A stretch of DNA of 64,000 bases from Naegleria gruberi (Eukaryota). Position 1 is the first letter of the stretch; the number at the start of each line of letters is the position of its first letter. The notes beneath the pieces were generated by a model. It made no database searches. It was not told the DNA's origin and saw only the letters and a program-made list of their open reading frames with translations. A program made the position numbers and the translations under genes. The stretch is from NCBI GenBank assembly GCA_000004985.1, contig GG738869.1; one strand, written 5' to 3'. Of this stretch, positions 7,955-62,984 are shown piece by piece.

Positions 7955-10900
7955 TTAATATCTAGGAGAGGTAAAATTAGCTGGTCTTGGTGAGTTGTTA
8001 TTACTGTAAGAAAGAGAATAATTGGATGGAGGGCGAAGAATGTTTTGGAATTTTGTAACTTCAATAGTTTGCAATTCCATTTGTTTCTTGGCATCCTTTC
8101 TTCTCTTCTTTCTACTAAGCAATCTTGATAGAATACAGAACAGTAAAGTTATAGAGATGATTGAAATTAAAATGACTGCTCCAATAATTGAACCTGCAAT
8201 AATGATATAGGTAATACTATAATCAATATTAGATGCCATTGGTACGCTTGTTGTTGGGTTAACACTTGTTGCAGGTGTTGGTGTTGTATCTTGACTACTA
8301 ACCACCAAATAAATACCAGTACTTTTAACAGAAATTACTATGGTATTTGAGTTTGATGAATTAATTGTGCAATTTGACGCCTTTGAGAATATACCTGAAG
8401 ATGTCTCTACTCTACATTCAAGAACTGTTCCTGTCTTAGCTGATCTAGCTCCGGATACTCTCTCCAAAGATAATTGAGCAATATTAGAACTTGAAATAAT
8501 GTTTTTTGATGTACTATCAACTAGAATCTTGAAATCTAATGCCTTAGTAGCAAGTAAGAGTGAGGTATTAGACATCTTGTATGAATTCATTGACAATGTA
8601 ACACTTTCAACTCCTTGTAATTCACTAAGTGAGCTGAATGTTGAACTGAGAGTAAATGGTTGAGCACTTGATTGTGTAACATTTTCTGATAATCCATTAA
8701 GTGTAATTGTACTGACCAGTCTGGCATATCTGTATGAATTAACACCTGTAACTCTAACAGCAGGCATATCAGCAACCAATGTCTTTAGTTTAATGTCTAC
8801 AAGATTGTTGTAAATTGTTTGAATAGTCTTCAAGTCAGAGGAAGAGAAAGAATTTAAAGATCTTGTAGAGACCTTGGCAGAAATATATGTCTTGAAAGTA
8901 TCTACAGATTTAATACTTGAATCAATATCACTGGACTTCATGATAATACTGTCCTTTTCATTAACTTTTGCCATTGATTCTGAGAACTTATTAATACCAT
9001 ACGAAACAGCAGTATCTTCCAAGTAGCTTAGTGAGTTACTAATTGAAGATACAACAGATATTGTTGAAGAAATAGAGGCTGGAGTGACTGATGTAAATGT
9101 TTCCTCTGATTCAATTTGAGTAAAGAATTTTTGAATAAAGGTGGTACCAGATTGTGTCAAAGCTTGCTTTTGTGATTCTGTTTGAGTTGTGGTAGTTTGA
9201 ATCAAAGATAACACTGATGAAACAGTTGAAACTGAAACTGTTCCTTGTTGAATTATTTTGAGAGACTCAATAGTGGAAGCCACATCTTGAGGTTTTGTAA
9301 CAGTTACCTCTGAAATGGATTCTGATGTTGCACCATAGTAATCAGAAACTAATGCCTTTACTTGCCAAATGCCAACAGGCATGTAGGTGGAAATGCTATT
9401 CTTTTCTGAAAGAGCAGATAAAACCATCCAGTCATCACTGCTACCCTTCTTCCTATACATAAACTTATAGCCTAGAGGTAAGTGTACATCAGTCCATCCA
9501 CTTGCACAATTAAGTTCAAAAAGATCTACCAATGTTACACCTGTTGAAGGAAGGATTGCAAAGGTTCCAGCAGTTGGAGGAGAATTTGTTGTAAATGTAA
9601 GAGAAGTTGATCCAGACTTGGAGCCATCTGTTATCTTCAAATTGACAGTGTAAGTTTTTCCTGCAGAAAGTAATGATTTGGAAATGACAAGGTACTTGTT
9701 GGAGGTGGATGGTAACACAAGATTTGAACTTGACCATTGATAAGTTCTGGAAGATGAAAGGGTATCCTTTGAAGAGGCTTCTAAGGTGAGATCACTAGTT
9801 GGATCAATGACAGAAGTAGAGACATCACTTGGAGTTACAATGACAACACGTAAAACAGTTGATTTGGCCACATTAAGTACCTTAACTTTTAGTGAAGCAG
9901 CCATAGTTCTTGTTCCCTTGCTGAATTTAGCAGTAAAGTAATAATTACCAGGTTGCATAGCACGATTAAATGTAATACTGGAAGCAAATTTGTAACTTGC
10001 AGAACTGAAACCATCACACGATCCAGAGGTGTCCACTTCATAACAAGTGAGAGCCAAAGAACCTGTAGTTCCAGTTGAATCACTTGGATCTTGTAAATAA
10101 ACAATAAAGTTAACATCATCTTCATATGATTGAGACATATCCCCAATATTGAAAGAGACCTTAAGAGGTGTTGCCTTAGCAGTCACTTTGAATGAAATAG
10201 ATACACCAGCAGCATAAAGAGTAAAATAATAGTCTCCTTCTTTTGTAAGTTTAGTGAAACTATCACTGAATACCAAAAATTGTCCATCTTGCTTAATTAC
10301 AACGTTATCAGCTGAAGTTGTAGTATTCAACTTATAGACATAGGTCACAGTTTGGGATGCATCGTAGCAAACAGGGAATGTAATATCTGGTGTGATAATA
10401 GCTGTACTTCCAATCATGAAACTAGTTTCAACACCTTCTTTAATTGTAAGTTGAGGTAAAGCCCTTTCCGTTACAGTTAAGGAAACAATAGCTGTTGAAT
10501 AGTTTCCAGAGAATGAGCTTGTTACCTTCACTTGTGCTTTGTAAGTACCCACAATTAATGTATCAGGTGAGAATGTAACACTAGATGTTATTGATTTGTT
10601 GATGAGATTATTTAAAGTTGAGCGTGAACTTTCGCTTGGGGCAGAAATTGCATACCAAGAATAAGTTAACTTTCTACCATCTGATGAAGTAGATGCAGAT
10701 GCATTAAATGTTACAGTTCCACATCCTATTCCAATAGAGCTCTTATCAGATTTTACACTAGCAACAGGTGGAACAATTATATAATCTTTTTGGGTAACAT
10801 TGACACTAACAATGCTTGCTGATCCTGGATATGTGCGAAGCAAGATTGTGTCTCCAATTACTATTGTTGGAGAAGATCCCAAGTTAATTTGAAGAGTACT

Positions 10901-13900
10901 CTTTGTGCCATTCAAAATACAAGTTGGGTTGCTTCCAAGCATAGAAATATCAATAATCACATTACCACAAGCAACTTGTTGATTGAAAGTTGAGAAAATT
11001 GTACCATAAATAATATGTCCCTTAGAATTAAATCCAAAGGAATTGGAGTCAATACCATAATTGCAATCATTTCCATACCATCCCTCCTCACAAGAGTTAC
11101 AGCTGTCACCGATTGTGTGAGGATTACAAGAGCAAGTTCCCTCATCATTACAAGTACCCCTATTACTACATGTTTTGCTTGCAAGACATTCTATATTACA
11201 GTCAGCACCAACAAATCCTTCCTTACAACGGTCACAATTGGATCCTGTCCAGTTACCGAAACATTCACACTCAGCCTCAATATTACAAGCACCGTGTGAG
11301 TTACATGTTACGTTATCATAACAAACACTGTGATTACAATGGGTACCAGCGAATTCTGGAAGACACCTTTCACAATATTGTTGAGGATCATAATTTCCTT
11401 TACATGTACATTCTTCAAAATTAACACATTTTCCTCTTCCACCACAAACACTTGGTCTTGAAGAATTAACATTATTGCAAGAAGTAAACTCGCAATTCAA
11501 ACCAGAATAACCATTAGTACAATTACATTCTGGCATTAAGCTCAAACCAACATCACAAGTACCACGAGAAGAACAAACAGCCTTATTAGTGGACAATAAC
11601 CCATTACAAATAGGAATATCACAATTTGAGCCATTGAAACCTGCTTTACATCTCGAGCATGAAACTCCTTCAAAGTTACCATCACAAACACAAACATGAC
11701 CAACACAAGATCCATGATGGGTGCAACCTCCCTCCTCTTCAGATTTACCATTACAAGTAATAACAGAACAATCCTCTCCTTTGAAACCACTATTACATCT
11801 ACAAGAATTAGCAGCTATACAAACTCCCTGTCCAGAGCATGACTCAGTTTGATTATAACTTCCAAAGCAAATGGGGAAGTCGCAATTATCTCCATAATAT
11901 CCATCGAAACAAGAACAATTATTCTCTGCAATACACAACCCATTAGATGAACAAACATGACGACTTGTGTCAGCATAACCATAACAGTGAGTAGCATTGA
12001 CATTATCTATTTCTGTCTCATTGAAACTTGTGGAATTTTTCAAATCTGTAGAGTTCACAACACTGGTAGCATTATCTGTTGTTGTAGTGTTTGTAAGTGT
12101 ACTGTTATCAGTGTTTGTATTATTCAAAGTGTCTGTACTATTCAAATTTTCTGTACTGTTTAAAGTGTCTGTAGAATTTTGGAAGATTTGAGTAGTATTA
12201 TCAGTAACTGTAGAATTTGAGAGAGTTGAATTGGTTGTTGACGTGTTTGAAGATTCTTGTGGAACAACTTCAAAAAGGCAATCTTCTGTTGGAAGAGTTT
12301 CCCAATATTCAGCCACAAAGGAAGAAAGTAAGGTAAATGGTTGAGAAGAACCTGTGATACCACTATTCAACACTTGAACACTCAGCATGATATTGCTTTC
12401 AGGATCTTGAACATTTTGAATTGATTGCACTGTTACTCTCTCTACATTATTCTTTGTATCAATAGAGGAGCCACCATTTCCGTATAATACACGTGAAGAT
12501 GAGTATTCTGAGGTTTCACTATTCAAATTGTATACATTTACAATCAAATCCAAGTTATTGATAATGTTTGGCAATACTGAAGTACTTGAAGAATAGTCAT
12601 ACCAAGTAAGGGTTGATCTGAATGTTGATGATTCAGTTACGTTCTTCTTCAATCTATAGCACGATCTTAATGTTTGGTTTGACTTGGTAAATGATTCTTG
12701 AGAAATAGATAGTGTTACATTTCTTCCTTTTTCATCACTAAAAAGACTTCCGAGTTGAATTTTTCCAAATCCTTCATAAAAGTTTGGTGTTCCAAAGGCT
12801 TCACTAATACTGAATCTTTGGAATTCATCGTCTGAATAAGCAACACTACCATTCAGAGGAACTGAGCTATGAATCATTGCAGCCTTAATTAAATGTCCAC
12901 TTGGAGCTGAAATTCCAAGCTTCTTGATAAAATATTCTCTCAATAATAGAGCACCTCCAGCCTTTTCCACACAAAGAGTATCATATTTATCAAATTTGCA
13001 TTAATTCAATATCATTTCAACAGCAAACAATATTGTAATTAACAATGTAATTAATAATAATAATAATAGATAATAATGATAATAACGTACGGATATCGGT
13101 GTTGCCATTGATGTGCCACTTTTTGTTATAAGGGCAGCATTGTTTGAAATGGATGGGGAACCAGCACCACATTGAGATGTTGAAATAGAACCGTCTGAGC
13201 GAGCTGAAACAATCTTGAATCCAGGTGCAACAACTATGGGACCAGTAATATTTATCCAAAATCAAACCCAAAAAAAACTTACAATCTGGTTTAATTCTTC
13301 CTCCAATAGCTGGACCTCTGGAAGAAAATGCAGCAAGGTTATTTTCATTATAAATATTTGTATATTGCAAATAAGAGCTAACATAACTATTTGCTGATGG
13401 TTCGTAGGTGGCACTGTCCACAAAACCAGCGTTTGAATTTCCATGAGCTCCAACAGAAATACCATTTTTACAAGTGGAAGGGGCTGTTAAATGTAAACAT
13501 TAAACTACTAGTTCAGTTGAATACTTACTACCAAGGTTTCCAAATCTGGATAATTGCCCATCATTTCCTTGGGCAATCAAAACTGTTGCATCTTGATGGC
13601 TCCAAATAAATTGATCAAACTTTTGGGCATAATCATCATAGGTATTACAAACATCACAACAAGTGTCAACTCCAAACAGGGTTTTACAATCATCGTTTGT
13701 AACAGAATCACCAGCACTAAAAGGAGCTTTATCTGCAGTTAGTGTGCATCCAGTACAGTCATAAGAGCAATCCACATATCCACCAATAGAACATCCCCAA
13801 CTGTTCGAAAATACTTTTGGTGTTGCGCTGCTTGTGTATGGAGTGCTTAATAGGTCAGTAATATCATTAGGGAAATATAATCCACTTCCATCTGCTGGTG

Positions 13901-15378
13901 CCAAGTCCGTAAAATATAATTTGGCACTTGGTGCAACACCATGAAAGGCATTTACGCCAGTTCCAAGGTTTGTGGCTTCCATAGAGCCGACAACACTACC
14001 AGCTGCATTGAAAACAAGTAAGAATGTTAATAATACAAATAAAACTTACCAACATGAGTTCCGTGTCCAGCAGTAACATCAGTAGCATCACCAGAATAAG
14101 CGGTTCTAATCCTAACTACCTTTCTTCTATTCAAATTAAGGGAGGTTGGAGCCCCTGAATGATTGTTATCAGTAAAAAAACAATGATCATAGTCAAGCCC
14201 AGTGTCAGCAACGGCTACAATCTGATCAGCTCCATAAATACCCATATTGTAAAATGGAGTTTCGTGAGGAAGAGATGGATGAGCAGATTGAACAATCTCG
14301 AGGGAATGTTTGTTAGAAATACTAAGGGACAACTTTCTTTGAACAAAGTGAATATTAGGATGAGAAGTGAGAATATATCCAACATAGGAAGCAATGAATG
14401 GTGAAAATGCAATTTCACACACATTTTCAGAAACAAGGATCATTGGCGCAAAATCAACATCTTTCACATACTTTTTAGAAAGTATTGTATTGATTTCATT
14501 CACCAATTTCTCAGTTTCTTGTTGTTGAGTTCCCAATGTGATAGATTGAACAGATGGAATGACTGAAATAACAAATCTAATCAGGTTTGATTGCTCGAAT
14601 GTTTGAGAAATTCTTGTCGAATTACTGACATTTCTCAACGATCTTTTTGGAGGGGTTCTTTTTCTTTCAAAAGCCAAAGACTGCAATTTTTGGAAATCAA
14701 AAGTTGATTTAAATCTAGATTCATACTCTCCAATCCACTCAATTTCATTATTATTGACAATTTCTGTAACATGACTTGCTGTAGTAACAACAGAGTAAAT
14801 GTTAGCAGACAAGACGTTATTTTCTCTTATGAACGTATTTTCAATAGATGATCCATCTTTGATTTTTACAATAAATTGATAATTTGGTTCCTCCAAAACA
14901 TCCCTTCCATCAATTCTTCTCTTCACTTTTCTAGAAAGATGTCTTAAACGTGAAGGGTTATTTAACAGATTTCTATCATTGGTTAGTTCATATCCATTCT
15001 TATCAATAGAAATACTTCTAAGATTATTTTGATTTTTCAAAGCTAGAAAGGCTACTGATGGAATAGTATCTTTTGAGTAAAGTTTTTCCCAATCTTGTTT
15101 GCTTACTGATTCAAGCTTACTGGAAATACTAAGAATGTGATGATTTTAATAAAATCGGAATAAAGAGATTAAAAATCAATACGCTCATATTCTACATACT
15201 CTTTGCAATATACTCCAATGTTGAAAAGAATAATTGCCATCAAACATAAACCAATCAATGATGTTCTTAAACACCATCTCCTCTTATAGAATGGTGCAAC
15301 ACCATCATTAACAACAACAACACTATGCATCATATTTTTCCAAGCCTTACACTTAAACTTCTCCAATACTACCCTCAC
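7955..15378 (-). CDS. Giant type-I membrane subtilisin-like serine protease with EGF-like repeats (~2,360 aa, 6 exons)
   Basis: Exons (minus strand): 15378-15200, 15128-14050, 14002-13529, 13483-13283, 13233-13091 and 12961-7955. Introns are 71, 47, 45, 49 and 129 nt with GTATGT, GTAAGT or GTACGT donors. There is an N-terminal signal anchor (LIGLCLMAIILFNIGVY). The subtilase catalytic motifs are spread across exons: VAVADTGLD (Asp), HGTHVAG spliced across a 47-nt intron (His), GVAPSAKL, AAFSSRGP and GTSMATPIS/AGGALLL spliced across a 129-nt intron (Ser). Downstream are S/T/N-rich tandem hexapeptide repeats, then at least 10 tenascin-like EGF repeats (CxCxxGYxGxxCD), then S/T-rich Ig/PKD-like regions, then one C-terminal TM helix (IIAGSIIGAVILISIISITLLFCIL) with a basic tail. 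Confidence 0.8.
12050..12260 (-). repeat. In-frame 18-nt coding minisatellite (NSTDTL-type hexapeptide repeats) inside the subtilase-EGF gene
   Basis: The plus strand shows reiterated units such as ttcaaagtgtctgtacta, ttcaaattttctgtactg and tttaaagtgtctgtagaa. They encode ...NSTDTLNSTENLNSTDTLNNTNTDNSTLTNTTTTDN.... Confidence 0.6.
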
Positions 15379-24515: not shown

Positions 24516-27500
24516 TTAAACATCTAAACTGAAAGACCACTGCAGTTTTGTTGTTGATCCATTAAAAGCAATCTCTTCTTCATTTCCTGATCTAAATAAT
24601 TCGAAAATTCTTTCGATAGTTGTACTTAATTTCATCACTTCTTGTTTGTTGTGGCAAAGTTTGATCTTTAACACATTGTCTGGTTGGATAGTCTCTAAAA
24701 TGTTGAAAGATAACTTTTCATTGATTGGAAATTGGCCAACTGTACAAGGCACTAAGCCAGATTTAGCTTTTTCATTATAAGTTCTTTCTTCTGATCCCTG
24801 TGAAAGAGAAACTTTGAAATTTACACAACCATCTCCATACGGACAATTGGTTAATGAAATAAAGTTAACAATCAATATACTATATGAAGATATTGAAGTT
24901 GCTTGAGGTGGTATTACGGTTTTGTTCTTAGATGGTGATGGTAAGCCACCAATGGATAACCTTCTTATTCTTGCTTTCAAAATTTCATTTTCTTTTATCA
25001 ACTCACTAGCATTAGAATACGTATCAGATGTGTCTAAACTATGATTCAAGTCGGAATTTGCTGGAGAAATTGGACTTGTTGGTGGTGTAAAGTTTGGTAT
25101 GGCTTTTCTCTTTGGAGTTGTTGACCCACCAACTGATCCATTTTGAGAACTATTCATGGTTGAATTAGCAAAAGCTTCTTGCATCAAGCCACCATAACTG
25201 GAAAGACTCTTTCTTCTGAGAGAATTCCATTTTCCTTCTTCTTGCGTTATTTCTCCTACCAAATCAAACTGAATAAAGCCATCTTCCAAGTATTCAATTA
25301 AATCCTCGTTAACTGTTCTTACACAGTATCTTCTATGGAAATTGAACAAAAGGTTTGTTCCTGTTTGCTTGGAAGTATGAATTGGTTTCTCAGTATAAAA
25401 CTTGAAACGAACATAATTGTCCTTGGATTGTGAGTCCAATTCCTTAACAGCTTTAATCTTGAGCAGGAAATGAAGAGATTGGCCCATCAAATCATCCGGA
25501 GTTTCAACAGGTAATGGTGTTTGTTTCATGGTTTCATCACCTGGAACCAATGGAACGATTGCTGCTAGCAAGTGGCCCCTTACCTCACCATCAACATCAA
25601 GAAGAGGAAGCAACTCTTCTTTTGCTGTTCTTCTGGCTAAATGCTTCAGTTCCATTCTGGCTGTTCCTACTACTTCGACAGAACTGCCATAGAAAGGATC
25701 TTGAACTTCTTCAGTCATAGAAGTGTTAAGATCATTTTGGACTGGTTCTCTAATGATGAGAACTTTTTCTCTCATCTTTACAAGTCTAGTTTCAAACTCC
25801 TCAACCGACCACATTGTTGTCTTCTTCCTTTCCTTATCAACTGCTTGTATACCCAGAAGAGGTTCAGAATTTTTAACCAGAATTTTCAAGTCATATCTTA
25901 TATTCTTATTGAAATCCTTTACAATATCATTTGCTTCCTTAATCATTGGCAAAAGCCTAACCAAATTTTCATCGATTCTGTTTCTCGAAATATTACCAGG
26001 AGGAGGCTTTACGACCTTTTCTTCTTTGTGGACAAGCTTGTTGTGAAGACCTTTAAGAACACCCCTAACAGTGTCTCTAAAACTTCTTCGTTTCTTCTTC
26101 TTTTTTTCATCCATTTCCTCAAGCTTTTGTTTATGTTCCTCTAACTCTTTGACTTGTCTTTCAATAATTTCTTGCTGTTTGTACTTTTCTTTTTCATATT
26201 CTTTCTCTATCTCCAATAGTTTTGCCTTCATTGTTTCTTCAATTTCTTTTTCTTTTTCTTCTACAGCATATTCAATAGCTCTCTTTTGTTCTTGAGATAA
26301 CTCTTCTTGAGCAAAAGCCCAATCGATATTTTCATCCACTTGTGAGCTTGTTTCTGTAAATCTGAAAACGTGATTATTACCTAAAATTATTCTGTCATTA
26401 CACTTCAGTTCTGTGTCCTTGGTTATCAATTTACCGTTTACATAAACAGTAGCAGAATTGATTGGAATGATTATTATATTCTCGGGAGTTCTGGAAACTA
26501 TACAATGTTGTGGTTTGATTTGAAGACCATTCAGAACAATATTATTAGACTTATCACGACCTAAGAATGTATCACCAATTTTAAAGAAATACACAAGCAT
26601 ACCACTCATCATTGGATCTTCATTCAAGTTGACCAAACTTGGGGCGTCAGTTGATTGAACAATATCTCCAATATCTGTGAACACAATACCAGCTTCTTCA
26701 AGAACTTTTCTTCTTGCCTTTTCAATTTCGTGTGTTCTTCGTTCCTTTTCTTTCTGAGTTGTTTGCAGCTGTTCTATAATTTGTTGACTTGAGGCAAGCT
26801 GTTCTTTCAGTTTAATTTTTTCATCGTCATCGACAACCTTATTTGAAGGTGTAAGAAGACATTTAAGTCTTGAAATTTCATCTCTCAGCTCTCGAATTAC
26901 TGTTGCATTTGGATCTTCGTTGATTTTTGCCTTATTTTTGATACTTTTTGCTCTGTTGGCATATCTGAGGGTGGAAAGAGTTTCTTGGTAATTATAATCG
27001 CTAGGTGAAAGTGTTGCAATCATTATCTTTTGGAAATTAGCTTGTCAACTTTTGTTGAATTACATACCGTTTTGCTATTTCCTCCCAAACTTTCTTTAAG
27101 TAACCAAGTTCTGTAACTCTATTAGTAAAGAGAATTCAACCTTCATACTTACAAAACACTGTTTCTGTAAGGAACAAAAACTTTCTTATTTGGATTTTCT
27201 GCTTTCTCTGACAATTTGTTGATTACATTACCTAGGGCTGTGAGAGAAACGTTAATAGATGATCCTTCCTTTAGTCTTTCGCCTGTTGCTCCTGTTTTAT
27301 CTGCTCTTTCAGAACCAGCTAAATCTATCAAGTTAATGATTGAAACTTTTTCAGAAAAGGCAGAAGTTCCATTGTCAACAATAGATTCAGTAGAAGAAGC
27401 GAGAATAATTTGGAAAATAGTGTGAGCTCTTGATGATGTATCATTCATATTTGTTTTGGCAATAGTTCTTAACCTATTACCTTCATCCATTAACCTCAAA

Positions 27501-28252
27501 ATGTCGTCCTCATTATGTACAATACAAGATTCCATTCCCTCAATATAAGGACCTGTTTGAGGATTTTCTCTAATCTTCAAACCAGCCTTATTATTCAAAG
27601 GATTTGTTGGGTTGAAAAGGTCTCTAACTTGTTCATTATAGATTTCAATCATTGAGGTTTCAACTCTATAATTTCTTGTAATTCCATCATTCTTATTTCC
27701 ATCTTCTCTAATTCTATGAAAGATCGCTTTACAAATTCTAGGAATCAACCCCATATGTTCTCCTTCTCCAACTCCCATCATTGTATACTATATAGTAAAA
27801 ATACAAATACTATTAAAATCCAAACAATCCTCAAATAGACACATACCGTTTTACCACTATCAACAGTTTGAATTCCTATTGTCAATCTAAAACTTACCTT
27901 CCTGTTTGACCATAAGCAAAAAGTGAAGTATTATATCCTTGGAAAGCATTTTCAATGATCCTCACACCAATCTCATCAAACACTTTTTCTTGTGGGGTGT
28001 GTCCCTCACTCTTTTCATCATGACTCCAAAATGAATAATCAAAGCTAAATGGTCTATCTTGTCCATGAGTATCTGGGTCTCTTATTATTGTTTGAGGACC
28101 CTCCATATTAATAATACATTGTGTTCCTCCTTTAATACGTTTTTCTCTTTCATTGAAAGGACGAACACGAACAGCAACCTTAGGAGATGATATTGTTATC
28201 CATCATTGTTCATACTTCTTCTAATACATACCAGCACCGAATCAGACGACAT
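24516..28252 (-). CDS. Kinesin-3 family motor (Unc104/KIF1-like) with FHA domain, 6 exons including a 10-nt micro-exon
   Basis: Exons 28252-28232, 28178-27898, 27856-27847, 27787-27153, 27110-27068 and 27026-24516. Introns are 53, 41, 59, 42 and 41 nt. Motor motifs are [14 protein letters not shown]-loop AYGQTG|SGKT|YTMMG (split by the micro-exon), [24 protein letters not shown]|[14 protein letters not shown] and [25 protein letters not shown]. An FHA domain follows ([33 protein letters not shown]), then a coiled-coil and cargo region. Confidence 0.85.
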
Positions 28253-28534
28253 TTTTTCGTTAGGAAATATAAGTTTGGCGCAAAGATAAGATTCTGGGAT
28301 TGTTGTACAACAGTCACCTAAAGCTTAGAATCAACCAACATCATCGTAATTCATGAAAGAAACTTACAACACAAAGTTGATGGTGATTGAAAGGGCCTTG
28401 GTCATTGAAATAAAAGCGATAAGGCATAACGTTCAAAAACATTGTTTTACCTCTGAGATAAAATAATTGAACAAGAAATCATAAAAACACCCGCCAAAAA
28501 TTTACGCATTTAACCTCTAAAATTAAAAAAAAAG

Positions 28535-31389
28535 ATGGACTCTCTGCCTTTCGATCATTTTCCACCAGAGTTGCTCAATGACTACAACAAGGAATTGAGT
28601 GCAAAAGTTCATGAATTGCAACAATCACTCAATGAAAAACAAAAGAAGGTTAAATCGGAGGAGGATAGAACTTCAACATTAAAGGAGCACTTTAAGAATG
28701 CAACTGTTGAAGCACAAAATACTCAAGCATTGTTAGAAGCTAAGAATAGCGAAACGGAAACAGAGTTGCATCTTAAACAAGTTGCTGAAAGAGAACTGGG
28801 AAGACTCCAAATAGAAATACAAAAAATTGATAAGCAAGTAAATGATATTCAGGATCAGGTAAGTATTCAAGAAATTTAATTTCAAAATTAATTAATTAAT
28901 TAAAAAGACCAACTTGGTTCAAAATGAAATTTTCAGAACTAATGAAAAAATTGATGAGCTTAAAACAAATATGGGTTTTGATCAAGAAGAATTGGAACAA
29001 TGGACATTAGCCGAAAAACAAAAAGAGGAAGATCAAGAAATTATCGAACAATATTCCAAACAAGATGAAAAGAAAATTAAGGATATTAATTTGGATAGTG
29101 AGAAGTGGACTAAACTTACTGAACTCAAAAAAACAGAATATGAAAAGGAAATTACTGAAACACAATCTGTTCAAATTGAGTTAGAAAAAACTGCAGAAGA
29201 TTACAAGGCCCTCCATAAGGAAAGACAAGACCTCATCCAACAATGGGAAGATACAATTGAAGCTATGAATAAGAGGGATGAAATGATTCAAAAGGCTGGA
29301 GAAGCATTGACAAATGGTAAAGACGATATTCAAAGAAGACAAGAGGACTTGTATGAGCATACAAAGAGATTTGAAGATAGAGTCCAAGATAACAAAAAAT
29401 TGGAACAACAAATAGATAAATCTGGAAGAGTTTTGGAAGGACTACGTGACCAAAATGAAAAGCTCAAAAAGCATATCAAGTAAGTATATTAAGAAATGCA
29501 TTCTAACGTTCGTTTAGAGATTTGGAAGATGAACTTGAAGTTATTAGAAACACTCTAGCTAAGAGCTCGAGTGATTTGAACAACAAGAGAATTGAAAAGA
29601 AATATTTACAAGACCAAATTAAAAAGAAGGAAGAAAAACTTGAAGCTTTGACAACACAATTGAAGGAAACAACCACAAGATTGGAAGAAAGTAAAGTTTA
29701 CATGGGAGATCTGGAGTCTAGATCCAAATACGTTTCAGATGTCCTAGTTTCAGAGGAAACCAAGCTTAAAAACATGGACAAAAGATTGGAAGAACTAAAG
29801 ACTCAACTTTATCACCAATCCCAGGCTTTGTTCAAGGAACGACAAAAGGAGGCAAACATGATTGCAGAAATAGGAGGAACAAACTCTCAAAATAAGAACA
29901 TGGTATCAAAAATTTCACAACTTGAAAGTGTGGTTCTTAAACAACAAGAGTTGCTCTATAACATTGAATTCCAAGTTCAACAAATGGAAAGAAGAGTTAA
30001 CAGAGCTCAAGGCGAAAGAACTGAGGAAGAGAAAATCAAGCTTAATCTTCAAATTGAAGAACTTCAAAAGACTTTGGATGAACATGAAGCCCAATTTGAT
30101 ATGATTAAGGGTGAATGGACTAAGGTAATTGGTGAAGTTAGAAAGATTAAAAAGGAAGTTGACATCAAAGAAGATGAAAAAGCTAAACTCACAGAAAAGG
30201 TTCATGATCTCACTTTAGAAAACAATTCACTTGAAGAAGAAATGAAGTTGTTGTCCAGAGAAAAGGAAGACTTACTTGTTCAACACGATATTCAAAAACT
30301 TCAAGTTAAGAGAATGAGAGACATGCTGAGAGCAAGAAGCGATGAAGTATCTGGTTTAGAAAACAGAAAATATCAATTGGAAATGCTCTATGTTGAAAAG
30401 GAACAAAAGGTTAAAGCTCACAAGGAAATGTTAGGAGCAGAATTAAAGGCTTACGAAGATGAAAGAAGAAAGCTTTCTCTTGAATTGAGTAATAGAAGAG
30501 TCCATATCGACAAGCTTAAGAATAAGTATAACATTATGATTCAGAGAATGAAACCAGACGAGGATGGTGAAGAAGTTTCTCAAGCACAATTCTTGATTAG
30601 AGCAATTCAAGAAAGAGAAGAACTTCAAAGAATTGGTGACAAGTTGGATGAAGAAATTCAAAAACTTGAGAGTCATGACAGAGGATTGGAACATACTCTC
30701 TCTTTATTCAAGAATCATAATATTAGGTAAGTTTGAATGATTTCTTTATCTTAATTTCATTTAGCCATAACGAGCATTATAAGAAGGTTGATTTGAACGA
30801 TCCAGACATTAGACAGAAAGTTGAACTTGAAAATAAGTGTAAGGACTTGGACACACTTACCAGTAGAAGAATTCAAGAGCAACACGATTACGAGGAAAGT
30901 GCAACAAGAAAACAAAAGGAATTTGAAGCTGTTATGATCGAGCAAAAAGAAATTCAGATAAAACTAGATGCTCTTAAGAACTCAAAGCAATTGTTAGAAA
31001 AGGATATCAACAAATTGTTGACCTCCCTTGCAACTCAAAAGACGTTATTTAAGAGTCAACTTAAGGAAATTAAGAAGACGCCAGATGGGGAAGTCTTTAC
31101 TCAAGATATTAATTGTACAGATGCCAAACTTAAAATCAAAAATAGCTTATTAACTTTAGGGCAAATAACTGAAGGAAATCCAGTGATGCGAAATACATTG
31201 GAAAAGTACTTGAAAGAAGAAGGGCTCTCAATGCCAATTATCAGTAGACCTGCATCTGGATTATCTGTTCTCTCTTCCAGAACCAGTGTAAAGAGCTCTG
31301 TAAGGAGTGTAAATAGTTCGACAAATAGAAGTACAACTTCTAGTACTAACAGAAAGGTAGCAAACACATCTATAATTTCTTTACAGTAA
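28535..31389 (+). CDS. CCDC39-like axonemal coiled-coil protein (tentative), 4 exons, ~910 aa
   Basis: Exons 28535-28858, 28908-29479, 29518-30726 and 30765-31389. Introns are 49, 38 and 38 nt, and the phases check out. It is coiled-coil throughout. Segments recall CCDC39: AERELGRLQIEIQKI, HKERQDLIQQWEDTIEAMNKRD, LKQQELLYNIEFQVQQMERRVNRAQGE and LQVKRMRDMLRARSDEVSGLENRK. The C-terminal tail is S/T-rich. The family assignment is from memory and needs a search. Confidence 0.5.
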
Positions 31390-31440: not shown

Positions 31441-32367
31441 ATGAACAGAATCTTGATCGCAACTTTTGCAATTTTGGCTCTCGTTATTAGTGCTCAAGCA
31501 TTTACTATTGGAGGAATTAAATTCAATGCTCCAAAGGATAACGAAGAAGTCTGTAAGTCCTTTGCCAATAGATATGAACCATTCGACTACTTCCTCCTCA
31601 GGTAGGTAAAATAATCATCATGATGAACTAATTCATTTACACAGTATTCAATGGCCAGGTACTGCTTGTGTCGGTAAGAAGCCAGGTGAATGCACTGTCC
31701 CAGATTTTGTCAATGATTTTACTCTCCATGGTAAGTATTTTCTATTTGATAATAGTAGAGAAATTTAAACTATTATTTAATGCATGCGATGAAAATTTAT
31801 GAATTTTTCAATCATCACGTCATCAATTATTATAACAATATATTATTATTATTATTATTAATAGGACTCTGGCCACAATACAACAATCCATCTACCTATC
31901 CAGAATGTTGTTGGAATATTGATTTTGATGCCAATGCCATTGCTCCAATTAGAGACCAAATGAACAAGTTGTGGCCATCTTTCTATCACTCCAATGAACA
32001 TTTCTGGACTCATGAATTTGTCAAGCATGGTACTTGTTCTAATTCTACTTTGGATAATTTGGAATATATCTACTTCTCCAATACTCTCAAGATTTTCAAT
32101 AAGATGCATCTTCTTGATGCCTTGAAGGGATCTAATATTGTTCCATCTCATGGAGGTTATCAAAGAGAAAGAATGGAAAGTGCTTTGGCTGCTGCTGGTT
32201 ATCCAGGAGTTGTTGCTTGTTTACGTGATCGTACCAACATTGGTGAAATTAGATTCTGTGTTGATAAGAATACTTTGCAATTGAAGAAATGTGACCAAGC
32301 TCTTATTGATAATATTCATCAACATAATGGATGTAAGGCAACTGTCAATTTCCCTCCAATTCATTAA
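31441..32367 (+). CDS. Secreted ribonuclease T2 family, 3 exons
   Basis: Exons 31441-31601, 31645-31730 and 31865-32367. Introns are 43 and 134 nt, and the second carries an (ATT)n tract. It has a signal peptide (MNRILIATFAILALVISAQA), CAS I (FTLHG|LWP across intron 2) and CAS II (FWTHEFVKHGTC). Confidence 0.85.
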
Positions 32368-34804: not shown

Positions 34805-36780
34805 ATTCAGTTTTTGGATAATTCTCCTCTTCAACAGCAATACTTTGATGGTATAACTTTCCAATAATTGAAGTTGATCTTATTTTACCTCCCATATAGT
34901 CAGGTCTCTCATTATATTCATGTATCCAATCTGGAAGCGCTACTAGTTGACCATTCTTACTTGATTCCATAACAACATCTGACAAGGCAGCCAATTCTTT
35001 TGCTCGAGGACTGTCTGCACCTTCCTGTTCACATACAACAACCCATGTATTGCAAATTATTCCAATCTTTCCGTGTAAATATTAAGGAATTATACTAAAC
35101 ACATTCACAACTTACATTACTACTCATTCTAAACTCAAAAACATTAGCACTAGTCCACCAATAGTTTTTCAAGAGATGATGGGAAAAGTTGGAAAGTGCA
35201 GTGTTGACACATTTCTTAAGATCAAATTGTTTAAGTGTATGGCCAAACTCATTAGCTTTACTCCACCAACTTTGAATATATTGTGCTTGTGGAATAATTT
35301 CAGTATTCCAAGAGGTAAAAAACCTATCACCATCTTTGAATTGCAAGTTAGAAATTGAAAATAAATGAAAGTTACCTAACTCACCTGGAATGTTGTGTTG
35401 CTGACAATCGGCAGCGAAAATAATAACACTTCCTTTTAAATCAACTTCATGTCCAAACCATTTCTGATAGTAATCTGGGATGGATACGGTTTCGAATATT
35501 CTTACATCTCGTGGATGAAGTCCAGGATTTCTGAAAACAATAACTTTTTTCCCACCTGGAACCATACGCCCATTCTTTGTAATGACAATAACTTGGTTAT
35601 CTTTCAATTGTTTAGTTTCGTCCAAAATTCCTTTAGCAATAACTGAATCTTTCATAAAAAACTTTGTTTTTTCCTTAGCATTCTTGATTCTTGCCCTAAA
35701 TTCTTCATCATTTCGACACTTATTTCTAGCAAGGGCTTTTTTTTGTGCATTAAGAAACACTTCATCCTTAACTTGCAATGAACTTAACAAAATAATTATT
35801 TGTCTATTAATATTTGCCGTGTCTGATTCATTCAATCCTTCAACAATTTCCAATTTGTTGAAAAGAGGATTCCCCTCAAATTTCTTCATGCTCTCTCTCA
35901 GAATGATTTGATTGCCATTCATGATCTTGTCTGGACATACTGTCAACATTCCCTTAAATCCAAGAAATCTAATCTGGAAAGCACGAGGAATGTGAACATA
36001 TTTTCCATCAATGCTTTGATCTCTCAAACTACAGCAAACTGCCTTGGCAAATGAGTAACTAATCATACCAATACCATCTGACACAATTCCTTTTCCATCT
36101 CTTGAATTAATGTCATCAATTACTATATATTTGTGAACACGAATTGTTTCTTTGGTGGAAGTGAAATTAAGACACTGTCTTGCAATTTTGGTTTCAATTT
36201 CAGAGGCATAGATCCCAAAGATGTCCATCATTTTCATTGGATCCTCTTCACATGTAAAGTAAACTCCCCTCTCTGAAAGTAAACTTGAAGAAGCACCAAT
36301 TGGCTTGAACATTTGTCCATATAAACAAAAGCCTTTCAGTGTTGTTTGCATTACTGTGGAATCTCTTTCATCTTCAAAGTCAACTCGGATGAATTTATCA
36401 ATTCCATAATATCTAAATACCTTGTTATAATCAATCTCGGCAAATTCAAATGATTTTAAATTGGTTGATTTCACTCTTCTTATCAATTCGGTTTGTTTTA
36501 CAGCGCTTTCATCAAATTTAAATAAAGTATGACACTTCTTCTCTGTAACCACATGTCTATAAAGTTGCTGTGAGAAGTGATACAAACATTGAGTCAGTTC
36601 TTCCTTTGCATTAACAAATTGTTCTGTCTGTTCCTTGAACCATTTACAAAATGGTGCATCTCTATGTTTTTGCAAGTAATGTAACAATAAGCTCCTTTGA
36701 TTATCGATTGTAATGCAACAATGATCGTTTAACCAACCCCATGCCTGTGACCACATTTTTTTGATATTCATTTGTTGCAT
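34752..36780 (-). CDS. RNA-dependent RNA polymerase (eukaryotic RDR/RdRP family), 2 exons
   Basis: Exons 36780-35116 and 35024-34752, with a 91-nt GTAAGT...CAG intron. It has the catalytic DxDGD-type motif (NLQFKDGDRFFTSWN) and the downstream RdRP signature LPDWIHEYNERPDYMGGKIRSTSIIGKLY. The last 53 nt of CDS overlap, antisense, the 3' end of the 7TM-RGS CDS. Confidence 0.7.
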
Positions 36781-60743: not shown

Positions 60744-62984
60744 ATGTCTCAAGATAAAGCCAACAGAGAACATATCGCAAAGCTTGTTGTTGAAGCAGTT
60801 AAAAATATCTATGATGTGGATGTTAGCTCCCTTCAAAACGAGTTTGCCAGTAAATTGGAATTACCAAAGGAATATGATATGCTTCACAATATTGCTTTCC
60901 CATGTTTCGCTTTGGGAAAGCCTTTGACTCCAAAGAAGCCTAAAGAAGTCAAATTTAATGATTTCATCATGAATATTGCTTCCGATTTGGCAAAGGAAAT
61001 AAGTAGAATTGTCAAGGAAAAAACTGATGTTGTTGTTGAAAATTGTGTAGGTGAAGGTCCATATGTCAACTTCTTCTATCAACCTGCTCACTTAGGAAAA
61101 GCTATAGAAGAGGTTCACAATGGAAATTTCCTTTCCGTTAGAGAATCAAAGAATGAAAATGTCATGATCGAATATTCTCAACCAAATACTCACAAGACCT
61201 TCCACGTTGGTCACATGAGAAATGCAGCTCTTGGTAATTCACTTGTTTTGTTATACGAATGGTGTGGTTACAATGTACACGCTGTCAATTATATTGGTGA
61301 TGTTGGTGCTCACATTGCTAAATGTTTATGGTACTATCTTTACTACATCAAAAAGACAACTTTGGAAGAATTCGAAGCTCTTGACCTTACTCGTGAACAA
61401 ATTGTTGACATGTTGGAAGAATCTAGACCAAAGGATATTCCTCATGTTGAATGGTTGGGTAACCTTTATACTGAAGGTTTCTATCAATTAGACTTTGATT
61501 CTTGGACTAAATATCCACTTATTGGATACATTACTGCTAAAATTTTGGACATTCAAAACCATCCAACTAATGACAAATGGAAGATTCTCACTGTCACCAA
61601 TGGAACTGAAAACTTTACTGTTGTTTGTGGTGGTAAGGATTACAATGTTAATGACATTGTTGCCTATGCTCCACTTGGTAGTAAGAAGGGTGCTAGACTT
61701 GTTACTGAAGTTGATAAGCAAGGTGTTATCTCACAAGGTTTCATTTTGAGTCAAGCTGAACTGGGTAGCTCTGAAAATAAGGAAAAGATTCACATTTTCC
61801 CTGCTGATTCACCAGTTGGTATTGAACTCACCGAATTGGGAAGAAAGGCAGACTGTAATGTTGATGCTTCTATTAACATTGGTCAAGAATTCAAGAAGAG
61901 AGAATCACAATGTAAGACTCTCTTGAGAGCTATGGAAGATCACAAGAAGAATATTTCCATGTTGTGGGAAATCACTAGAACTTGGTCAATTGAAGACTTT
62001 AAATCTATTTATAAGTGGAGTGACTGTAGATTCGACCACTTCTTCCATGAATCTGATGTTGGTGATGAAAGTAAGGAAATTGTTCTTAAGGCCTACGAAG
62101 AAGGTAAACTTATCAAATCTGATGGTGCTATTGGCGCTGATTTGGGTAAGCTTGGTTTCTGTGTTTTGTTGACTTCTGCTGGTACTGGTTTGTACGCTAC
62201 TAAGGATTTGGCTCTTGCTAAGAGAAAATTCGAAGAATTCAAAGTTGACAGAAGTGTATATGTTGTCGACGTAAGTCAAAGCTTGCACTTCCAACAAGTC
62301 TTCAAGACATTGGAAGTCCTTGGTTTTGAACAAGCTAAGAAGTGTAAACATTTAGCTTATGGTATGGTTGTTTTACCTGATGGTAAAATGAGTAGCAGAA
62401 AGGGTAACATTATCTATTTCAGTACTCTTCAAAAGTCACTCACCCAAAATATTACTGACAACTTTATGTCCAAGTATGAAGGTGAATGGCCAAAGGAAGA
62501 AATTGAAGAAACTACCAGAAAGATTGCCATCAGTGCCATCAAATATGGTATGCTTAACCAAGATAACAATAAGGATATTACCTTTGTTCTCAAAGAATGG
62601 GCTTCAAAGTCTGGTAACACTGGTCCATATCTGATGTATGCTTATGCTAGAGCTGTTTCCGTTGTTAACAAGATTGGTTTGGATAGCAGTGTCACTATTG
62701 ACTACTCATTATTAACTGATGAAACTGAAAGAAAGCTTTTGTCAACAATTCTCCAATATTCAATTGTTGTTGAAAGAGCTGCTGAACAATACAAGCCACA
62801 ATTGCTTTGTATCTTCCTCTACAATCTCTGTAAGCAGTACAGTAAGATGTATGAAGCTGTCAGTATCAGAGATGCTGCTACCCCAGAACTCAAACAAACC
62901 AGATTGAGATTAGTTGCTGGCTTCGCAAAGGTTCTCAAACATGGTCTTGGATTGTTGGGTATTTCAACTGCTGAGAGAATGTAA
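60744..62984 (+). CDS. argS: Arginyl-tRNA synthetase with an inserted EMAPII/Trbp111-type tRNA-binding OB domain
   Basis: 746-aa single exon. It has the Arg-tRNA-synt N domain, the HIGH-type motif HVGHMRNAALGNSLVLLYEWCGYNV, the ArgRS MSTRKG-type motif DGKMSSRKGN and the DALR anticodon-binding domain. It ends ...LGLLGISTAERM, as ArgRS proteins do. Residues ~258-341 (nt 61515-61766) are an extra OB-fold tRNA-bind domain: GYITAKILDIQNHPTNDKWKILTVTNGTENFTVVCGGKDYNVNDIVAYAPLGSKKGARLVTEVDKQGVISQGFILSQAELG. Confidence 0.85.
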   Translation: MSQDKANREHIAKLVVEAVKNIYDVDVSSLQNEFASKLELPKEYDMLHNIAFPCFALGKPLTPKKPKEVKFNDFIMNIASDLAKEISRIVKEKTDVVVENCVGEGPYVNFFYQPAHLGKAIEEVHNGNFLSVRESKNENVMIEYSQPNTHKTFHVGHMRNAALGNSLVLLYEWCGYNVHAVNYIGDVGAHIAKCLWYYLYYIKKTTLEEFEALDLTREQIVDMLEESRPKDIPHVEWLGNLYTEGFYQLDFDSWTKYPLIGYITAKILDIQNHPTNDKWKILTVTNGTENFTVVCGGKDYNVNDIVAYAPLGSKKGARLVTEVDKQGVISQGFILSQAELGSSENKEKIHIFPADSPVGIELTELGRKADCNVDASINIGQEFKKRESQCKTLLRAMEDHKKNISMLWEITRTWSIEDFKSIYKWSDCRFDHFFHESDVGDESKEIVLKAYEEGKLIKSDGAIGADLGKLGFCVLLTSAGTGLYATKDLALAKRKFEEFKVDRSVYVVDVSQSLHFQQVFKTLEVLGFEQAKKCKHLAYGMVVLPDGKMSSRKGNIIYFSTLQKSLTQNITDNFMSKYEGEWPKEEIEETTRKIAISAIKYGMLNQDNNKDITFVLKEWASKSGNTGPYLMYAYARAVSVVNKIGLDSSVTIDYSLLTDETERKLLSTILQYSIVVERAAEQYKPQLLCIFLYNLCKQYSKMYEAVSIRDAATPELKQTRLRLVAGFAKVLKHGLGLLGISTAERM

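What the first reader, a model, noticed from the sequence alone, without database searches (positions are those of the whole stretch)
28535..31389. CCDC39-like axonemal ruler protein gene: implies a flagellated lineage, or an unexpected retention
The 4-exon coiled-coil protein (~910 aa) shares several blocks with CCDC39/FAP59, including AERELGRLQIEIQKI, ERQDLIQQWEDTIEAMNKRD and LKQQELLYNIEFQVQQMERRVNRAQGE. CCDC39 is part of the 96-nm axonemal ruler and is present only in organisms with motile cilia. The rest of the window (aaaATG Kozak, N/Q tracts, AT-richness, ERMES, RdRP) looks dictyostelid-like, and dictyostelids lack cilia. Either the source is a flagellated AT-rich protist such as a heterolobosean amoeboflagellate, or this is an interesting retained or repurposed gene. 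My family assignment rests on recalled sequence, so treat it as a hypothesis.
Basis: inference. Interest (0 to 1): 0.6.

Follow-up and report, generated by a model that had tools for sequence, protein, structure and literature searches.

The report
Naegleria CCDC39 flagellar ruler gene
This is the ordinary CCDC39/FAP59 gene (part of the ruler that spaces structures every 96 nm along a beating flagellum) of Naegleria gruberi, an amoeba that grows flagella on demand, so finding it here is expected.

Summary
Window 28535-31389 (+) holds a 4-exon gene with three GTAAGT..AG introns of 49, 38 and 38 nt. It encodes a 909-aa, almost entirely alpha-helical protein.

The family assignment is also correct. 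The protein matches Pfam PF24161 (CCDC39) at 440 bits, against a cut-off of 27. Among all PDB chains it hits only six CCDC39/FAP59 chains, at E 2.5e-126 to 7e-94. The next best chain scores 13 bits, and no CCDC40 chain or other coiled coil is hit.

The supposed puzzle of a cilium gene in a dictyostelid-like genome dissolves. The ArgRS gene in the same window is 100% identical to Naegleria gruberi XP_002676976.1. The window is therefore N. gruberi, a heterolobosean amoeboflagellate that builds two motile flagella.

The gene tree follows the species tree: N. fowleri at 76% identity, then Acrasis and Percolomonas at about 49%, then Euglenozoa and a jakobid. UniRef already names the N. fowleri orthologue CCDC39.

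The most likely function is the conserved one: a CCDC39/CCDC40 coiled coil on the doublet microtubule that sets the 96-nm repeat.

The only small addition is a clean full-length gene model, which is not in the protein collection. Interest is low and the gene is already known.

The parts
28253..28534 (.). 282-bp head-to-head intergenic region between the kinesin-3 start codon (28252, minus strand) and the CCDC39 start codon. It presumably holds both promoters and the CCDC39 5' UTR, and carries the A-rich context aaaaaaaagATGG.
   Evidence: Sequence read. The kinesin motor domain was identified. Promoter function is inferred, not tested.
28535..28858 (+). CCDC39 exon 1 (codons 1-108, phase 0)
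   Evidence: It aligns with FAP59 residues 24-125.
28859..28907 (+). Intron 1, 49 nt, GTAAGT...AAAAAG
   Evidence: The junction ..DIQDQ|TNLVQNEIF.. aligns without a gap to FAP59 ..ELADKINGLQNQIY...
28908..29479 (+). CCDC39 exon 2. It contains the conserved blocks FDQEELEQW and ERQDLIQQWEDTIEAMNKRD.
   Evidence: An independent 189-aa ORF call, P0271, is identical to this exon apart from the first residue, where an in-frame TTG is called as Met.
29480..29517 (+). Intron 2, 38 nt, GTAAGT...GTTTAG
   Evidence: The alignment across the junction is gap-free.
29518..30726 (+). CCDC39 exon 3. It holds the family's invariant core QQELLYNIEFQVQQMERRVNRAQGERTEEE.
   Evidence: Invariant columns Q441 to E470 in a 25-sequence alignment.
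30727..30764 (+). Intron 3, 38 nt, GTAAGT...ATTTAG
   Evidence: The junction ..LFKNHNI|SHNEHYKKVD.. matches N. fowleri ..LFKTHNINHNAHYKKVD...
30765..31389 (+). CCDC39 exon 4. It covers the last helical segments and a Ser/Thr-rich disordered tail (residues 854-909). The stop codon TAA is at 31387-31389.
   Evidence: The C-terminus ..RKVANTSIISLQ is conserved in N. fowleri as ..RRVANTSIISLQ.

Best explanation
The gene is the Naegleria gruberi orthologue of CCDC39 (Chlamydomonas FAP59). By homology, the protein should form a long parallel coiled coil with CCDC40/FAP172. [quoted passage not shown] It provides the docking addresses for radial spokes, the nexin-dynein regulatory complex and the inner dynein arms. 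In Naegleria it would be made only when the centriole-less amoeba differentiates into its transient biflagellate swimming form. Shown here: the gene structure, family membership, orthology pattern, helical architecture and source organism. Inferred from other organisms: the CCDC40 partner, axonemal location, ruler function and differentiation-specific expression.
For: Family and architecture:
- Pfam PF24161 CCDC39 scores 440 bits (cut-off 27), covering residues 21-790 against profile positions 37-811 of 925.
- phmmer against PDB finds only six chains: Chlamydomonas FAP59 7ju4_A (E 2.5e-126), Tetrahymena 8tek_N (1.4e-114), and four chains labelled CCDC39, 9y6s_4R, 9fqr_Iw, 8j07_h1 and 9e5c_0v (E 2.5e-112 to 7.2e-94). 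All are collinear over about 780-890 residues.
- With the threshold relaxed to E 10, the next chain scores 13 bits. No chain labelled CCDC40 or FAP172 appears.
- An exhaustive phmmer search finds 314 representatives at E<=1e-30.
- AlphaFold2 with a 25-sequence alignment gives long helices over residues 16-853 and a disordered tail. No proline occurs between residues 12 and 644.
- The length of 909 aa lies within the 856-963 aa range of the solved orthologues.

Organism:
- The ArgRS ORF in the window is 100% identical, in blocks of 112 and 424 aa, to N. gruberi XP_002676976.1 / NAEGRDRAFT_33778.
- Naegleria assembles basal bodies and two motile flagella during differentiation, and centriole genes are induced in that process (PMC4819266).

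Vertical descent:
- The N. fowleri orthologue FDP41_012341 is 76% identical over residues 305-909, and UniRef names it CCDC39.
- A neighbour-joining tree groups Naegleria with Acrasis and Percolomonas, then Euglenozoa, then a jakobid.

Mechanism in other species:
- Loss of CCDC39 or CCDC40 abolishes the 96-nm repeat (PMC10266980).
- The heterodimer lies in the A02-A03 groove and anchors more than 90 proteins (bioRxiv 10.1101/2024.03.20.585965).
Against: Nothing found here contradicts it. The gaps are these. No expression or localisation data for this locus were examined. CCDC40 is not in the window and the rest of the genome could not be searched. No paper in the searchable library links Naegleria with CCDC39, FAP59 or CCDC40 beyond passing co-mentions. 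The introns are inferred from consensus sites and orthologue alignment, not from RNA.
Confidence: 0.96

Rival explanations
1. It is a generic long coiled-coil protein whose resemblance to CCDC39 comes from E/K/L/Q-rich heptad composition, not from homology.
For: The protein is 14% E, 12.5% K and 11% L. It also gives a weak sub-threshold hit to a CENP-F leucine-zipper profile, 25 bits against a cut-off of 34.5.
Against: Compositional similarity would also pull in myosins, CCDC40 and other axonemal coiled coils. Instead only CCDC39/FAP59 chains are hit, at 319-427 bits, and the next PDB chain scores 13 bits. The alignments are end-to-end collinear. Invariant non-heptad blocks such as R457, V459, R461, G464 and E470 are shared by 25 orthologues.
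Confidence: 0.01
2. It is a CCDC39 gene retained or repurposed in a lineage that has lost motile cilia, such as a dictyostelid-like amoeba.
For: The window resembles dictyostelids in composition: 33% GC, N/Q tracts, an RdRP and an A-rich start context.
Against: The window is Naegleria gruberi. Its ArgRS is 100% identical to an N. gruberi protein, 80% to N. lovaniensis and 74% to Willaertia. Naegleria forms motile flagella (PMC4819266). The CCDC39 tree places the gene inside Heterolobosea.
Confidence: 0.01
3. It is a true CCDC39 orthologue that has an additional or different main role in Naegleria, for example in the mitotic spindle or in axoneme and centriole elimination, rather than only acting as the 96-nm ruler.
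For: No direct evidence. Naegleria uses separate tubulin sets and unusual microtubule biology (abstracts listed). The Ser/Thr-rich C-terminal tail (854-909) is conserved only as far as N. fowleri.
Against: Full-length conservation with axonemal orthologues, including the invariant core blocks, argues for the conserved constraint. The family is known only from axonemes.
Confidence: 0.03

Closest known systems
Chlamydomonas reinhardtii FAP59 (CCDC39), PDB 7ju4 chain A / 8glv
   Same: This is the best solved-structure match, at E 2.5e-126. Residues 8-786 align collinearly with FAP59 24-803. The conserved blocks are shared, the lengths are similar (909 vs 925 aa) and both are all-helical.
   Different: The region C-terminal to about residue 790 diverges. 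Naegleria has its own Ser/Thr-rich tail.
Naegleria fowleri FDP41_012341 (XP_044566397.1; UniRef 'Coiled-coil domain-containing protein 39')
   Same: It is the closest orthologue found, 76% identical over residues 305-909 and up to the identical C-terminal ..VANTSIISLQ.
   Different: The N. fowleri model has only 604 aa and begins at window residue 305, so the N-terminal third is missing. The window gene gives a full-length 909-aa model.
Human and other PDB chains labelled CCDC39 (8j07, 9fqr, 9y6s, 9e5c); the human gene is a primary ciliary dyskinesia gene
   Same: E 7.2e-94 to 2.5e-112. For two of the chains the alignment runs almost end to end, query 7-897 against 13-904 of 941. The same Pfam family applies.
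   Different: These are more distant matches than the heterolobosean orthologues. The organism and the regulation differ, since Naegleria assembles flagella de novo and only transiently.
CCDC40 / FAP172 (the heterodimer partner)
   Same: It is also a long axonemal coiled coil of similar length in the same complex.
   Different: It is not the same family. No chain labelled CCDC40 or FAP172 is hit even at E<=10, although the six hits come from axoneme cryo-EM entries. From my own knowledge, not checked here, those entries also hold the partner chain.

Membership tests
CCDC39 / FAP59 (Pfam PF24161) | The sequence matches the curated family profile above its gathering score | tested here: met
   440.3 bits against a cut-off of 27, E 1.9e-131, residues 21-790 on profile positions 37-811 of 925.
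CCDC39 / FAP59 (Pfam PF24161) | The similarity is specific to CCDC39 rather than shared with CCDC40 or other coiled coils | tested here: met
   The only PDB hits are six CCDC39/FAP59 chains (319-427 bits). The next chain scores 13 bits and no CCDC40/FAP172 chain appears at E<=10.
CCDC39 / FAP59 (Pfam PF24161) | Full-length collinearity and a comparable length of about 850-960 aa, which is the basis of the ruler length | tested here: met
   909 aa. Alignments cover query 7-897 against bovine or human 13-904 of 941, and 8-786 against FAP59 24-803. The 25-sequence alignment has conserved columns along its length.
CCDC39 / FAP59 (Pfam PF24161) | Elongated, almost entirely alpha-helical coiled-coil architecture | tested here: met
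   The AlphaFold2 model has helices 16-128, 165-360, 364-455, 470-642, 655-708, 715-805 and 810-853, with the tail disordered. Its low pTM of 0.23 is expected for an isolated elongated chain. No proline occurs between residues 12 and 644. Dimerisation was not modelled.
CCDC39 / FAP59 (Pfam PF24161) | Orthologous placement, with the gene tree following the species tree | tested here: met
   A neighbour-joining tree on 873 columns groups the window with N. fowleri, then Acrasis and Percolomonas, then Euglenozoa, then the jakobid Andalucia. It is a simple distance tree without support values.
CCDC39 / FAP59 (Pfam PF24161) | Found in an organism that builds motile 9+2 axonemes | tested here: met
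   The window is identified as Naegleria gruberi. Naegleria flagellates have two basal bodies that template motile flagella (PMC4819266).
CCDC39 / FAP59 (Pfam PF24161) | The obligate partner CCDC40/FAP172 is encoded in the same genome | not testable with these tools
   No CCDC40-like gene is in the 64-kb window (Pfam scans). No tool gives access to the rest of the N. gruberi genome. The literature search found no explicit statement.
CCDC39 / FAP59 (Pfam PF24161) | Located in the A02-A03 groove of doublet microtubules with 96-nm periodicity, with loss abolishing the 96-nm repeat | not testable with these tools
   This is known for Chlamydomonas and human. It needs cryo-EM or genetics in Naegleria.
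CCDC39 / FAP59 (Pfam PF24161) | Expression tied to flagellum assembly, that is, induction during the amoeba-to-flagellate differentiation | not tested
   Genome-wide differentiation expression data exist (cited in PMC4819266). They could not be linked to this locus here.

The most novel reading that the evidence does not exclude
CCDC39 and the kinesin-3 gene (FHA domain) are arranged head to head, with start codons only 282 bp apart. This could be a shared bidirectional promoter that co-induces both genes during the amoeba-to-flagellate transition. It would mark this kinesin-3 as a previously unrecognised flagellum-assembly or transport motor in Naegleria. Separately, the full-length 909-aa model is not in the protein collection I could query. 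The Naegleria entries found there are fragments, which may point to an annotation gap at this locus.
Probability: 0.1. Interest if true: 0.25.

Novelty: already known. Interest (0 to 1): 0.07.

Why it matters
It matters little beyond housekeeping. CCDC39 is expected in every organism with motile cilia, and Naegleria gruberi is a classic model for de novo flagellum assembly. It also removes the apparent paradox of a cilium gene in a dictyostelid-like genome. Practical by-products are a clean full-length gene model for a gene represented in Naegleria by partial models, and a reminder that low GC content plus N/Q tracts is not diagnostic of dictyostelids.

Tried and rejected
- Exact-sequence look-ups led nowhere. 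The ArgRS ORF, the RGS ORF and the N. gruberi ArgRS model were not on record in the look-up of encoding contigs. The 909-aa model is not in the cluster collection. The N. gruberi reference annotation at this locus could therefore not be inspected.
- The search for homologous proteins listed no Naegleria protein for the full-length query and found nothing at all for the exon-4 peptide. I first suspected the gene was unannotated in every Naegleria genome. The exhaustive phmmer search then found N. fowleri models at 76-77% identity by BLASTP. Absence from the word-indexed search is therefore a tool limitation, not biology.
- Synteny was checked and none found. The Acrasis kona locus and a Logan heterolobosean contig have unrelated neighbours.
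- No other cilium-specific gene turned up in the window by Pfam.
- Literature searches for Naegleria with CCDC39, FAP59 or CCDC40 gave only incidental co-mentions.
- An alternative intron-1 acceptor, TTTTCAG at 28930-28936, was rejected. It is out of frame, and the orthologue alignment is gap-free with the acceptor at 28907.
- Fold search was not run. A monomeric coiled-coil model with pTM 0.23 would match any long helix and add nothing.

Full report
**Observation.** Window 28535-31389 (+) holds a split open reading frame. Joining four exons gives a 2730-nt CDS and a 909-aa protein ending in TAA. The exons are 28535-28858, 28908-29479, 29518-30726 and 30765-31389. The three introns are 49, 38 and 38 nt long, and each begins GTAAGT and ends AG. 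Every splice junction lies in a gap-free stretch of the alignments to Chlamydomonas and Tetrahymena orthologues. The exon 3/4 junction and the C-terminus are reproduced in the Naegleria fowleri orthologue. An out-of-frame alternative acceptor for intron 1 was rejected.

**What it is.**
- The protein matches the curated Pfam family CCDC39 (PF24161) at 440 bits, against a gathering score of 27. The match covers residues 21-790.
- Searched against every distinct PDB chain, it hits exactly six sequences. All are CCDC39/FAP59 from axoneme structures: Chlamydomonas 7ju4/8glv at E 2.5e-126, Tetrahymena 8tek at 1.4e-114, and four further chains labelled CCDC39 at 7.2e-94 to 2.5e-112. The alignments are collinear over roughly 780-890 residues.
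- Relaxing the threshold to E = 10 adds only noise at 13 bits or less. No chain labelled CCDC40 or FAP172 and no other coiled coil appears. A compositional artefact is therefore excluded.
- An exhaustive phmmer search of 1.84 billion representatives finds 314 relatives at E<=1e-30.
- A 25-sequence alignment shows invariant residues concentrated in the QQELLYN..FQ.QQMERRV.RA.GERTEEE core.
- AlphaFold2 with that alignment predicts long helices over residues 16-853, with short breaks at 129-164, 456-469 and 643-654, and a disordered Ser/Thr-rich tail at 854-909.
- No proline occurs between residues 12 and 644.

**Whose gene it is.**
- The single-exon ArgRS ORF at 60744-62984 is 100% identical to N. 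gruberi XP_002676976.1 (NAEGRDRAFT_33778, on a 747-kb scaffold). The identity covers both blocks of that 536-aa model, 112 and 424 aa.
- The same ORF is 80% identical to N. lovaniensis, 74% to Willaertia magna and 56% to Acrasis kona.
- The window is therefore Naegleria gruberi, a heterolobosean amoeboflagellate. Its amoebae lack centrioles and flagella but differentiate into swimmers with two basal bodies and two motile flagella (PMC4819266).
- The window's 33.4% GC, N/Q tracts and RdRP fit Naegleria as well as dictyostelids.

**Orthology.**
- The closest relative is N. fowleri FDP41_012341 (XP_044566397.1). It is 76% identical over residues 305-909, and UniRef already names it "Coiled-coil domain-containing protein 39".
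- Next come Acrasis kona, Percolomonas and unnamed heterolobosean contigs at 48-50%. Euglenids, diplonemids and the jakobid Andalucia follow at about 38-41%.
- A neighbour-joining tree reproduces this order, so the gene was inherited vertically.
- Synteny with Acrasis or the Logan contig is absent.

**How it most likely works.** This part is inferred from homologues. [quoted passage not shown] Loss of either protein removes the 96-nm repeat entirely (PMC10266980). The Naegleria protein keeps the length, architecture and conserved blocks of the solved orthologues. The same role in the transient Naegleria flagella is therefore by far the most probable, at about 0.96. Not shown here: the CCDC40 partner (it is not in the window and the genome could not be searched), expression timing, and localisation.

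**Comparison with what is known, and novelty.** The gene passes every membership test for CCDC39 that could be run. The rest are not testable with these tools. It is a known gene family in a known flagellated organism with a published genome, so I rate it "already known". The one small addition is the full-length four-exon model. That exact sequence is not in the protein collection. The Naegleria entries found there are fragments: N. fowleri models of 604 and 454 aa, plus single-exon ORF calls. I could not inspect the N. gruberi reference annotation itself.

**Dead ends.**
- The word-indexed homologue search missed all Naegleria entries. That briefly suggested an annotation gap across the genus, but the exhaustive search disproved it.
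- Literature searches found no paper discussing CCDC39, FAP59 or CCDC40 in Naegleria.
- No other cilium-specific gene is recognisable in the window.

**Verdict.** The intriguing alternative, retention in a cilium-less lineage, is excluded. This is an ordinary, expected gene. Interest is about 0.07.

Noticed in passing
window 60744-62984 (+): The arginyl-tRNA synthetase is bacterial-type. After heterolobosean orthologues, the next best full-length hits (44-50% identity) are Planctomycetes and Bdellovibrionales ArgRS carrying the same tRNA_bind (PF01588) domain. This suggests an old horizontal transfer into Heterolobosea. The N. gruberi reference model XP_002676976.1 (536 aa) starts at internal Met76 and splices out residues 188-322, which take in much of that domain (matched at 264-360). 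The uninterrupted 746-aa ORF is collinear with N. lovaniensis (747 aa) and Willaertia (748 aa), so the reference model is probably wrong.
   Followed up: partly
window 24516-28252 (-): A kinesin-3-type gene (motor domain, Kinesin_assoc and FHA) lies head to head with CCDC39. The start codons are only 282 bp apart, so a bidirectional promoter is possible. The first exon, ATGTCGTCTGATTCGGTGCTG, is followed by a short GTATGT intron.
   Followed up: partly
It has no Pfam hit better than E 0.07 and no PDB sequence match at E<=1. The ERMES call remains unverified. A fold comparison would be needed.
   Followed up: partly
window 7955-15040 (-): A very large secreted or membrane protein combines subtilase (Peptidase_S8) fragments, many teneurin- or laminin-type EGF repeats, a REJ domain (PF02010, E 4e-37) and a C-terminal transmembrane segment. 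This is an unusual architecture for a protist.
   Followed up: no
L002 8001-10793 (Acrasis kona JAOPGA020000758.1); protein P0001: Acrasis kona encodes an intact 930-aa CCDC39, called as a single uninterrupted gene range, that is 49% identical to the Naegleria protein. From my own knowledge, this aggregative amoeba has no described flagellate stage. Its genome paper mentions neither flagella nor cilia. A 2025 paper, seen only as a citation, reports 'cryptic flagellate stages' in Heterolobosea.
   Followed up: partly
window 31441-32367 (+): An RNase T2 family gene with a signal peptide and several short introns lies immediately downstream of CCDC39. The gap between the CCDC39 stop and its ATG is 51 bp.
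   Followed up: no
window 35095-36780 (-): The RNA-dependent RNA polymerase domain (PF05183, E 1.5e-60) is confirmed. This fits the statement that the Naegleria genome encodes the machinery for RNAi (PMC4819266).
   Followed up: no
tool behaviour (vs 40, 41): The word-indexed protein search returned no Naegleria CCDC39 entries, although N. fowleri models at 76-77% identity exist in the exhaustive library. With coiled-coil queries, negative results from that tool should not be read as absence.
   Followed up: yes
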